Part shown: in pieces, positions 27,976 to 54,302 of the stretch
How the letters are laid out: each line of letters begins with the position of its first letter
How positions within the stretch are numbered: position 1 is the stretch's first letter
Assembly (NCBI RefSeq): GCF_009914755.1
Contig: NC_060947.1
Direction: 5' to 3' (one strand)
DNA from: the human T2T-CHM13v2.0 reference genome, Homo sapiens
Length of the DNA stretch: 64,000 nt
The notes under the pieces: generated by a model
The model's database searches: none
What the model saw: only the letters and a program-made list of their open reading frames with translations
What the model was told of the DNA's origin: nothing
Made by a program: the position numbers and the translations under genes

Positions 27976-28332
27976 TGTGTTCATCTGTTCTCATTGCTGC
28001 TAATAAACACATACCAAAGACTGGGTAATTTATAAAGGAAAGAGATTTAATGGACTCACAGTTCCACATGGCTGGGGAGGCCTCACTGTCATGATGGAAG
28101 GCAAAGGAGAAGCAAAGGCACATCTTACATGGTGACAAGAAACAGAGCTTGTGCAGGAAAACTCCTGTTTGTAAAACCATCAGATCTCATGAGACTTATT
28201 TACTACTATGAGAATAGTATGGGGGAAACTGCCCCCATGATACAATCATATCCACCTGGCCGCACCCTTGACACATGGGGATTATTACAATTCAAGGTGA
28301 GATTTGGGTGGGGACACAGCCAAACCATATCA
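27976..28332 (-). mobile_element. THE1B/C solo LTR
   Basis: gactgggtaatttataaaggaaagag...gggtggggacacagccaaaccatatca; exact TSD tgtta (27971-27975 / 28333-28337). Confidence 0.9.
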
Positions 28333-28705
28333 TGTTACAATGCATAATCTCTTCCAAATGAAAGTAGTGCAGTATAAAATAGTTTTGTTTTTTCATCATT
28401 CTCAGATGCCCATGTTCACATTTGGAAAAAAGGGTAAAAGAAAGGTAATTAAGGGGGAAAATGATGCCCCACAGATATTAAAGTATATTTTAAAGCTATT
28501 CTAATTAAAATAGTTTGGTTCTGTCTCATGGAGTATAAGAATATCTGATATATAACTCTTTATAATAAAGCAGAAAAAATTAGAAATAACTTGTGTCCAC
28601 TAGTAGAATAATGGTTAAGTAAATTATGCTTTCAATCAAATATCTTGCAAGCATTTAAAATAATAAATCATCTCAGCATAATTGTGGAGCAGTCTCCAAA
28701 TGATA

Positions 28706-49500: not shown

Positions 49501-49553
49501 TGAGCTGCAGATGAGGTGTAGTTTGAGGTGAGCTGCAGATGAGGTGCAGTTTG
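49501..49553. repeat. 28-bp tandem duplication
   Basis: tgagctgcagatgaggtg(t/c)agtttg repeated at 28-bp offset. Confidence 0.9.
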
Positions 49554-49623
49554 CCCCATGGTGTCTTTACCAGCTGCATAATATTTTGAGAGCGGAAGAG
49601 AGAACACACAGGGGATAATTTTA

Positions 49624-50867
49624 TAATTGTATTTTGTATTTTTATTAGAAAATACGTCAGGTGTGCAGAAATGTACAGATAATAACATAACAGATATCCA
49701 CAAATCTACCATCCAGACATAAAATATATATATTTTTTTCGCCATAAATTTTTCTTTTTTTTTTTTGACTGGGAAGAAAAACAGGTTTAATTGGACTTAG
49801 AGTTCCACATGGCTGGGGAGGCCTCAGAATCATGGCAGGAGGCAAAAGGCACTTCTTGCATGGTGGCGGCAAGAGAAAATGAGACGTAAGCAAAAGTAGA
49901 AACCCCTGATAAACCCAATAGATCTCATGAGACTTATTCACTATCACGAGAATAGCACGGGAAAAAGACTGGCCCCCATGATTCAATTACCTCCCTATGG
50001 GTCCCTCCCACAATACATGGGAATTCTGGGAGATACAATTCAAGCTGAGATTTGGGTGGGGACACAGCCAAACCCTATCATCCTGCCCCTGACTCCTCCA
50101 AATCTCACGTCTTCACATTTCGAAACGAATCATGCCTTCCCAACAGTTCCCCAAAAGTCTTAATTCATTTCAGCATTAACCCAAAAGTCCACAGTCCAAA
50201 GTCTCATCTGAGACAAGGCAAGTCCTTTCTGCCTATGAGCCTGTAAAATCAAAAGCAAACTAGTTACTTCCTAGATACCATGGCGGTACAGGTATTGGGT
50301 AAATACAGCTGTTCCAAATGGGAGAAATTGGCCAAAGCAAAGGGGTTATAGGGCCCATGCAAGTCCAAAATCCAGCAGGGCAGTCAAATTTTAAAGCTCC
50401 AAAATGATCTCCTTTGACTCCAGGTCTCACATCCAAGTCACACTGATATAAGAGGTGGGTTCCTATGGTCTTGGGCAGCTTCACCCCTGTGGCTTTGCTG
50501 GGTACAGCCTCCCTCTCGGCTGATTTCATGGGCTGGCATTGAGTGTCTGCGGCTTTTCCAGGCGCATGATGCGAGCTGTCAGTGGATGTACCATTCTGGG
50601 GTCTAGAGGACGGTGGCCCACTTCTCACAGCTCCACTAGGCAGTGCCCCAGTAGGGACTCTGTGTGGGGGCTCCTACCCCACATTTGCCTTCTGCACTGC
50701 CCTAGCAGAGGCTCTCCATGAGGGCCCTGCCCCTGCAGCAAACTTTTGCCTGGGTATCCAGGCATTTCCATTCATCTTCTGAAATCTAGGTGGAGGTTCC
50801 CAAACCTCGATTCCTGACTTTTGTGTACCTGCAAGTTCCAACCCTGCCAAGGGTTGGAACTTCCACC
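49624..50867 (-). mobile_element. Processed THE1A retrocopy (5'-truncated internal region, U3-R, poly(A), extra 3' segment)
   Basis: THE1-int 50081-50867; THE1A LTR 49767-50080 stops at cttcccagtc followed by poly(A) (T-run 49749-49766); exact 15-bp TSD caggggataatttta at 49609-49623 and 50868-50882. Confidence 0.85.
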
Positions 50868-51336
50868 CAGGGGATAATTTTAAAGCACTGAGACTGGGCG
50901 GCCATGGGAGAGAGATTCACCCTACAAAGCAGCAAGACACCTTGATGTAAGTCACATAGAACTGGCTCCACACGAGGTGTAAGTCTGCATCCTCACAAAG
51001 GGCGGGACTCTATAAGTGAAGACAGGAACAGGAGAGACACCCACAGCCTGTGCGTGGGGCTCAAGGCACAGGTCCAATTATCTGATGAAGGTAGGGTAAG
51101 GAGAAAAGGGGTGAGACTGCCCTGTTCCAAAGAGGATCAAGAATAGAGACTGCTTGGAAAGCGTGTGAGTTTTGGGGCTCAGGGTGGCATATCCTGAACC
51201 CCAGCACTCACTTATTGGCATTTGGGAAAACAGGCAGAGCAGGAAACCCACGTTCACCTTCCCCTCATCCTTCTCCTCCAAAGCAGGCCATGAAACCTAG
51301 GAAGGATTTTCTGACCTTCCCCAAAGCAGGCCCTAA

Positions 51337-53290: not shown

Positions 53291-54302
53291 TGTTACTGGA
53301 AAGGGGTCCTGATCCAGACACCAAGAGAGGGTTCTTGTATCTCACACAAGAAAGAATTCAGGGCAAGCCCATAGAGTAAAGCGAAAGCAAGTTTATTAAG
53401 AAAGTAAAGTAATAAAGAATGGAAACTCCATAGGCAGAGGCCCCAAGGGCTGCTGCTTGCCCATTTTTATGCTTATTTCCTGATGATATGCTAAATAAGG
53501 GGTGGATTATTCATAAGTCTTCCAGGAAAGGGGTGGGCAATTCCTGGAATGGAGGGTTCCTCCCCTTTTTAGACCATATAGGGTAACTTCCGGACATTGC
53601 CGTGGCACCTGTAAACTGTCATGGCACTGATGGGAGTGCGTTTTAGCATGCTAATGCATTATAATTAGCATATAATCAGCCATGAGGAGGACCGGAGGTC
53701 ACTCTCATTGCCATCTTGGTTTTGGTGGGTTTTGGCCGGCTTCTTTATCTGTTTTATCAGCAAGGACTTTACGACCTGTGATATAGTTTGGCTGTGTCTC
53801 CACATAAATCTCATCTTGAATAGTAGTTTCTATAATCCTCACATGTTGTGGGAGGGACCCATTTGGAGGTAATTGAATCATGGGGGCAGTCACCACCCCT
53901 ATGCTGCTGTTCTTGTGATAGTGAGTGGGTTCTCACAACATCGGAGGATTGCATAAGGGGCTTTCCCCCCTTTTGCTCGACACTTCTCCTTGCTGCCACT
54001 ATGTGAAGAAGGATGTTTTTGCTTCCTTTTCCACCATGATTGTAAGTTTCCTGAGGCCTCCCCAGTCATGCTTAACTGTGAGTCAATGAAACCTCTTTCC
54101 TTTATAAATTACCCAGTTTCGGGTATGTCTGTATTAGCAGCATGAGAACAGACTAATACAACCTGTATCTTGTGCTGACCTCCTATCTCATCCTGTGACT
54201 TAGAATGTCTAACCTCCTGAGAATGCAGTCTCATAGGTCTCAGTCTTATTTTACTCAGCCCATACTCAAGATGGAGTCACTCTGGTTCAAAGGCCCCTGA
54301 CA
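53291..54302 (-). mobile_element. MER41B solo LTR
   Basis: tgttactggaaaggggtcctgatccagac...caagatggagtcactctggttcaaa...ctgaca; exact TSD ccat. Confidence 0.85.
53779..54160 (+). mobile_element. THE1C/D solo LTR nested in MER41B
   Basis: tgatatagtttggctgtgtc...gactaataca; exact TSD acctg. Confidence 0.9.

What the first reader, a model, noticed from the sequence alone, without database searches (positions are those of the whole stretch)
49609..50882. THE1A mobilised as an L1-type processed retrocopy with apparent 3' transduction
Seen on the minus strand: an L1 endonuclease-type site (gcttt|aaaattatcccctg); 5'-truncated THE1 internal sequence; an LTR that stops ~20 nt after its ATTAAA signal with no U5; a poly(A) run; ~125 nt of unrelated sequence (49624-49748) ending in AATAAA and an A-rich tail; then the identical 15-bp TSD. 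Known: integrase-inserted MaLRs have complete LTRs and 5-bp TSDs, as the other THE1 copies here do, and L1-processed ERV copies are established for HERV-W. Inference: two rounds of L1-mediated retrotransposition, in which an already processed THE1A copy elsewhere was transcribed through its tail into flanking DNA and copied again.
Basis: partly seen in the sequence, partly recalled or inferred. Interest (0 to 1): 0.75.

Follow-up and report, generated by a model that had tools for sequence, protein, structure and literature searches.

The report
L1-made THE1A chimera with chr2 tail
This is an old, inert fossil on the human X: half of a THE1A retrovirus-like element, cut at its poly(A) site and fused to a 130-base piece whose only other copy is on chromosome 2, between matching 15-base repeats, likely pasted in one step by LINE-1's copying enzyme switching between two RNAs.

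Summary
The anatomy is real. On the minus strand, an exact 15-bp repeat at an L1 endonuclease site flanks 788 nt of THE1A internal sequence, a U3-R LTR that stops 20 nt after ATTAAA (about 42 nt of U5 missing), an A run, and about 130 nt of other DNA. That last piece has one other copy found in the genome, at chr2:151,308,599-727 (88%), so it is not local DNA. The chr2 donor has no THE1 in the 35 kb upstream. The 'A-rich tail' is copied from chr2, so there is no second poly(A). The donor junction is also not an R/TTTT site today. Both parts have diverged equally from their sources (8.7% and 8.5%), which fits one event. Best reading (0.5): L1 reverse transcriptase started on a polyadenylated chr2 RNA, then switched via a T run onto the poly(A) tail of a THE1A RNA. 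Rivals: transduction from a lost source (0.27) and a nested second insertion (0.18). L1-processed THE1 copies are rare: 2 of 2,644 motif-matching LTR ends. Primate orthologues of both loci would decide.

The parts
50868..50882 (-). 5' target-site duplication copy (14 bp counted from the canonical TTTT/AA nick, 15 bp as an exact repeat); its last G is shared with THE1A
   Evidence: (D6)
50081..50868 (-). 5'-truncated THE1A internal sequence, 788 nt of about 1,570; family name recalled, not from a repeat library
   Evidence: colinear with full-length relatives, 86-89%
50830..50865 (.). 16-nt-arm inverted repeat (15 of 16 complementary) near the 5' end; one arm replaces about 20 nt of THE1A sequence with a net 10-nt loss; likely a short fold-back template switch
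   Evidence: (I5)
49767..50080 (-). 3' LTR, U3-R only; ATTAAA at 49791-49786; ends 20 nt later; about 42 nt of U5 absent
49749..49766 (-). internal A run (A12 G A5); the last 4 A's are shared with the chr2 donor
49622..49752 (-). copy of G000:C2:151308599-151308727 (+), including AATAAA (49646-49641) and the A-rich 20 nt after it; the donor looks like the 3' end of an old L1M (family recalled; upstream DNA is repetitive)
49609..49623 (-). 3' target-site duplication copy, joined to the chr2 piece with no intervening poly(A)

Best explanation
A 5'-truncated THE1A copy cut at its poly(A) site and a 130-nt piece matching chr2 lie inside one 14-15-bp duplication at an L1 endonuclease site, and were likely inserted in one L1 event as a two-RNA chimera. 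Shown: the parts, their order and orientation, the chr2 match, the TSD, the site and the equal divergence. Inferred steps: (1) ORF2p nicked X at TTTT/AA. (2) It primed on an RNA from chr2 cleaved 20 nt after the old AATAAA, at or next to the start of its tail, so no tail was copied or kept. (3) After about 130 nt the cDNA ended in a T run. (4) That T run annealed to the poly(A) tail of a THE1A RNA from some proviral copy. (5) Copying went on for 1.1 kb and stopped, giving the 5' truncation. RNA-level joining of the two RNAs before copying would leave the same sequence and is counted here. The product is likely inert.
For: The donor exists, with no THE1 in the 35 kb upstream and no other copy found. 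The junction falls in a shared A run, as T-run annealing needs. Both parts are in the same orientation within one TSD at a canonical site. Ages match: 11 of 127 substitutions (8.7%, 95% CI 4.4-15%) for the chr2 piece, and a non-CpG median of 8.5% (7.0-9.6%) to 29 THE1A relatives. The donor has poly(A)-site geometry, with AATAAA, 20 nt, then a T run. The donor junction has C, not a purine, 3' of the would-be nick, so it is not an R/TTTT target as defined in PMC3649969 (passages). Same-orientation chimeras within one TSD are described for U6/L1, U6/pseudogene and Alu/L1 (PMC4476161, PMC11838501; passages).
Against: No positive signature separates it from a lost-source transduction. Published switches mostly involve U6 or an L1 RNA partner (PMC4476161 says switching 'might be restricted to U6 and U6atac'). 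I found no sign of a same-strand L1 upstream of the donor; the L1 there is antisense (partial check). Transcription of the donor was not tested. The missing terminal poly(A) is atypical for any TPRT model. The EN-site argument is weak: 1 of 9 roughly called Alu TSDs also had GG before the TSD, and either base may have mutated.
Confidence: 0.5

Rival explanations
1. Two-round 3' transduction. A processed THE1A once sat at the chr2 junction. A read-through transcript passed its U5-less poly(A) signal, ended at the next AATAAA, and was copied to X. The source never fixed or was lost.
For: The order element - A run - unique flank - AATAAA is exactly the transduction layout. A U5-less signal would favour read-through (inference). 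The junction is in an A run. Lost sources are documented: PMC12593883 found sources for 84% of transduction-bearing SVAs and inferred loss for others (passages). Ages fit.
Against: No source at chr2. The junction is not R/TTTT today. There is no second poly(A). It needs two rare events: processed THE1 copies are 2 of 2,644 motif-matching ends, and the source would have had to be transcribed without its 5' U3 while unfixed.
Confidence: 0.27
2. Two separate insertions at one spot. A processed THE1A inserted first. The chr2 piece was later put into its tail/3' TSD, by a second TPRT or by templated break repair.
For: The donor start shares 6 nt (AAAATT) with the start of the TSD, and its last 8 nt match the TSD's first 8 at 7 of 8 positions, so both ends have microhomology to the X site. 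PMC4476161 notes that nested second insertions can mimic chimeras (passage).
Against: The 3' junction lies exactly at the original canonical nick with only the site's own four A's. A second nick there would fall inside a T run and give a TSD of only about 6 nt. The equal divergence of both parts leaves little time between events, though the CI is wide.
Confidence: 0.18
3. Not L1-made: an integrase-inserted THE1A damaged by deletions, with a chance repeat and local or assembly-derived extra DNA.
For: None found beyond the absence of an empty-site comparison (the flanks could not supply one).
Against: Exact 15-bp repeat at both ends. The LTR stops at the poly(A) position and is followed by A's. 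The donor on chr2 is 88% identical, which is too diverged for a mis-assembly.
Confidence: 0.05

Closest known systems
HERV-W processed pseudogenes (PMC5016936, PMC5537654)
   Same: U3-R 3' LTR, poly(A), TT/AAAA site, TSD of 5-15 bp
   Different: The element is a MaLR (THE1A), a family where this route is rare (2 of 2,644 ends scanned), whereas 135 of 213 HERV-W loci are processed. An extra chr2 piece lies between the poly(A) and the TSD.
L1-made chimeric retrocopies: U6/L1, U6/pseudogene, Alu/L1 (PMC4476161, PMC11838501, PMC2104539)
   Same: Two RNAs of different origin, same orientation, one TSD, EN site, 5'-truncated 3' partner
   Different: The 5' partner is a long Pol II ERV-like RNA joined through its poly(A) tail and is itself 5'-truncated. 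The 3' partner is a single-locus old repeat end, not an active L1, and has no tail.
L1/SVA 3' transductions, including those with lost sources (PMC12593883)
   Same: Element - A run - unique flank with poly(A) signal - TSD
   Different: No source element at the donor, no second poly(A), and the carrier would be a promoter-less processed copy.
Tailless retrocopies (described in PMC2912911)
   Same: TSD-flanked copy whose 3' end has no A tail
   Different: Those are mostly 3'-truncated small RNAs. Here the end coincides with a poly(A) site.

Membership tests
L1-processed ERV copy (HERV-W-type criteria) | 3' LTR is U3-R, without U5 | tested here: met
   ends 20 nt after ATTAAA; 29 of 29 relatives continue
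L1-processed ERV copy (HERV-W-type criteria) | poly(A) after R | tested here: met
   A12 G A5
L1-processed ERV copy (HERV-W-type criteria) | TT/AAAA site and 5-15 bp TSD | tested here: met
L1-processed ERV copy (HERV-W-type criteria) | 5' LTR is R-U5 | tested here: inconclusive
   the copy is truncated inside the internal region
L1-processed ERV copy (HERV-W-type criteria) | empty orthologous site with one copy of the TSD | not testable with these tools
   no primate genomes held; the flanks gave no repeat spanning the site
THE1A subfamily | best match to the THE1A model in Dfam/Repbase | not testable with these tools
   name recalled from the LTR end; about 1.9-kb LTR spacing in relatives; other LTRs in the window only 68-72% alike
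3' transduction | the 3' segment maps to one donor locus | tested here: met
3' transduction | source element directly upstream of the donor segment | tested here: not met
   (this one genome only)
3' transduction | second, non-templated poly(A) before the TSD | tested here: not met
3' transduction | donor junction is an L1 EN site (R/TTTT) | tested here: inconclusive
   not met in today's sequence, but 1 of 9 Alu controls is similar and the ancestral base is unknown
template-switch / ligation chimera | two unlinked RNA sources, same orientation, one TSD at an EN site | tested here: met
template-switch / ligation chimera | both parts inserted together (co-occur in all orthologues) | not testable with these tools
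   only equal divergence shown
template-switch / ligation chimera | terminal poly(A) tail | tested here: not met
integrase-inserted MaLR | complete LTR ending in CA with 5-bp TSD | tested here: not met

The most novel reading that the evidence does not exclude
L1 reverse transcriptase can jump from an ordinary intergenic RNA onto the poly(A) tail of an ERV-like RNA. This lets MaLR RNA enter the L1 pathway and leaves a structure that imitates a 3' transduction, so some 'lost-source' transductions with an internal poly(A) would in fact be template-switch chimeras.
Probability: 0.4. Interest if true: 0.6.

Novelty: new variant of a known kind. Interest (0 to 1): 0.38.

Why it matters
Reviews describe HERV-W as the only HERV group mobilised by L1 (PMC5537654, passages). 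This locus, and a probable 47-nt copy on chr16, show that MaLR THE1 RNA was also taken up occasionally. If the chimera reading holds, it extends known L1 template switching from small RNAs and Alu to long polyadenylated LTR RNAs, and it warns against reading every element-poly(A)-flank structure as a transduction. It is one ancient copy with no sign of function, so the interest is mechanistic.

Tried and rejected
- Source THE1A at the donor: none in chr2:151,273,600-151,308,598. The only THE1-like piece in the 40 kb read is a complete solo LTR about 3.1 kb downstream, 79% identical. DNA further upstream than 35 kb was not read.
- Parent THE1A: none of the 29 relatives analysed stands out (10.1-12.5% substitutions, against 8.5-12.5% among 14 of them). 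Only 40 of 12,029 candidates were scored, so a closer copy may be missed.
- 5' inversion (twin priming): rejected; the first bases align in sense to relatives.
- Same-strand active L1 feeding the donor: not seen. The RVT_1-bearing L1 about 15 kb upstream is antisense (9 of 76 listed frames scanned).
- Other processed THE1 copies: of 4 loci, chr5 has an intact U5 and chr9 is cut by an antisense Alu-like insertion. The chr12 hit is not THE1. The other hits were not fetched; total matches were 53 against 54 in the control.
- EN-site control from Alus: the first try called 3 of 37 TSDs and the second 9 of 28; too few to decide.
- Empty site from a repeat spanning the insertion: the 5' flank's repeat ends about 330 nt away and the 3' flank is unique.
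- Rfam: no match.
- Literature: searches found no paper on L1-processed THE1/MaLR copies or this locus, judged from listings and abstract starts. The library lacks most subscription papers. Buzdin 2003, Szak 2003 and Garcia-Perez 2007 were not held, and no supplements were read, so the locus could be in their tables or in those of PMC11838501.

Full report
Observation. Read on the minus strand, the locus runs: GCTT, a 15-nt sequence (50882-50868), THE1-type internal DNA to 50081, an LTR from 50080 to 49767, an A run (A12 G A5, 49766-49749), about 130 nt of other DNA with AATAAA at 49646-49641, and the same 15 nt (49623-49609). The repeat is exact and occurs twice in the whole window. The 5' junction region never matched any of 2,940 random 60-mers over more than 10 nt. 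Counted from the TTTT/AA nick it is 14 nt.

The THE1 part. A search of the genome scored 40 of 12,029 candidates; the best are 86-89% identical over the full 1.1 kb. In the 29 relatives fetched and analysed, the sequence continues past this copy's end into the rest of the LTR, about 42 nt more; one is interrupted soon after. This copy stops 20 nt after ATTAAA and turns into A's. Relatives have LTRs about 1.9 kb apart, so this copy lacks the 5' LTR and about half of the internal part. Its first bases are in sense, so there is no twin-priming inversion. A 16-nt-arm hairpin at 50830-50865 replaces about 20 nt, with a net loss of 10. The two other THE1/MST-like LTRs found in the window are complete, with 5-bp repeats. 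The name THE1A is recalled; no repeat library was available. These features meet the criteria given for L1-processed HERV-W copies: U3-R end, poly(A), TT/AAAA, 5-15-bp TSD (PMC5016936, passages).

How rare. The 14-nt motif around the THE1 poly(A) signal has 2,644 exact matches (55 in the control). Four loci have seven A's within 30 nt. One has an intact LTR end, one is cut by an Alu-like insertion, and one on chr16 is a 47-nt piece with an A tail and an imperfect 11-bp repeat. So 2 of 2,644 look processed. This is a lower bound, because mutated signals and eroded tails are missed.

The extra piece. It has one other match in the genome, G000:C2:151308599-151308727, at 88% (2 candidates, both scored). 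A search with 731 nt of the donor region found no other copy among 40 of 51 candidates scored, only short repeat hits upstream. The donor lies about 414 kb from the nearest NID-domain exon on that contig (gene name NMI recalled). It reads like the 3' end of an old L1M (recalled), with AATAAA, 20 nt, then a T run. The match begins in a four-A run shared with the THE1A A run and continues through the A-rich stretch into the first bases of the TSD.

No source. The DNA directly upstream of the donor is not THE1, and none was found in the 35 kb upstream. A complete solo LTR, 79% identical, lies 3.1 kb downstream. An L1 about 15 kb upstream is on the opposite strand. Wherever the junction is placed in the A run, the base 3' of the would-be nick is C or T, not the purine of the R/TTTT definition (PMC3649969, passages). 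This is weak: of 28 Alus with a 5' end, 9 gave a rough TSD call, and 1 of the 9 also had GG before it. PMC12809410 (passages) reports that the endonuclease is only modestly specific in vitro.

Age. The piece differs from chr2 at 11 of 127 aligned bases (8.7%, CI 4.4-15%). The THE1A part differs from 29 relatives by a non-CpG median of 8.5%. Both parts thus date to about the time THE1A spread. No relative stands out as the parent.

Mechanism. Three L1 routes fit.

(A) One event with two RNAs. Priming was on the chr2 RNA at the start of its tail, followed by a switch from the cDNA's T run to the THE1A poly(A), or the RNAs were joined beforehand. This needs nothing missing from the genome. It explains the A-run junction, the canonical nick at the 3' end, and the equal ages. 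Same-orientation chimeras in one TSD are described for U6, Alu and other RNAs (PMC4476161, PMC11838501, PMC2104539; passages and one section part). Against it, those mostly involve U6 or an L1 RNA.

(B) Transduction from a processed source that was lost. The layout fits, and lost sources are inferred for some SVAs (PMC12593883, passages). But it stacks a rare first event, transcription without the 5' U3, loss of the source, and a non-canonical site.

(C) A nested second insertion. The 6-nt and 7-of-8 microhomologies of both donor ends to the start of the TSD favour it. The junction at exactly the first nick and the equal ages argue against it.

The weights 0.5, 0.27 and 0.18 are judgement, not computed. 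The missing terminal tail is unexplained under all three, except by priming at the body-tail boundary, where five bases pair, or by erosion.

Novelty. A review calls HERV-W the sole HERV group mobilised by L1 (PMC5537654, passages). Four searches found no report of processed THE1/MaLR copies or of this locus, within a library that lacks most subscription papers; three key older papers and all supplements were unseen. Each ingredient is known, but the combination appears undescribed. The copy has no Rfam match and, by the annotation supplied with the finding, lies outside exons in the PUDP span. Verdict: real, L1-made, most likely a chimera and not a two-round transduction; new variant of a known kind; interest 0.38.

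Noticed in passing
L049 (G000:C16:57349343-57349402, minus): A 47-nt THE1 R-region piece followed by 12 A's, flanked by an 11-bp repeat with one mismatch at a TT/AAAG site: likely a second, tiny L1-processed THE1 copy.
   Followed up: partly
window 50830-50865: Near-perfect 16-nt-arm hairpin (-16.1 kcal/mol as DNA) that replaces a natural, weaker quasi-palindrome of THE1A; looks like a short fold-back template switch, timing unknown.
   Followed up: partly
L047 (G000:C9, about 113529200-113530200, minus): THE1 copy whose first LTR stub (about 36 nt) joins directly to internal sequence and whose 3' LTR is cut by an antisense Alu-like insertion.
   Followed up: no
L062 4900-10000 and L061 1-1000: A long antisense L1 (RVT_1 hit on the minus strand) with a GC-rich stretch at its 5' side about 14 kb upstream of the donor; an antisense promoter there could transcribe towards the donor, untested.
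   Followed up: partly
L063 7453-7901 and L062 3536-3973: Two similar LTR-like repeats about 6 kb apart, probably one ERVL-type element (family recalled).
   Followed up: no
window 49501-49553: Two 25-nt copies 28 nt apart (96%) in the 3' flank, a local tandem duplication.
   Followed up: no
window 27996-28333 and 53779-54160: Two complete solo THE1/MST-like LTRs, each with a 5-bp TSD.
   Followed up: yes
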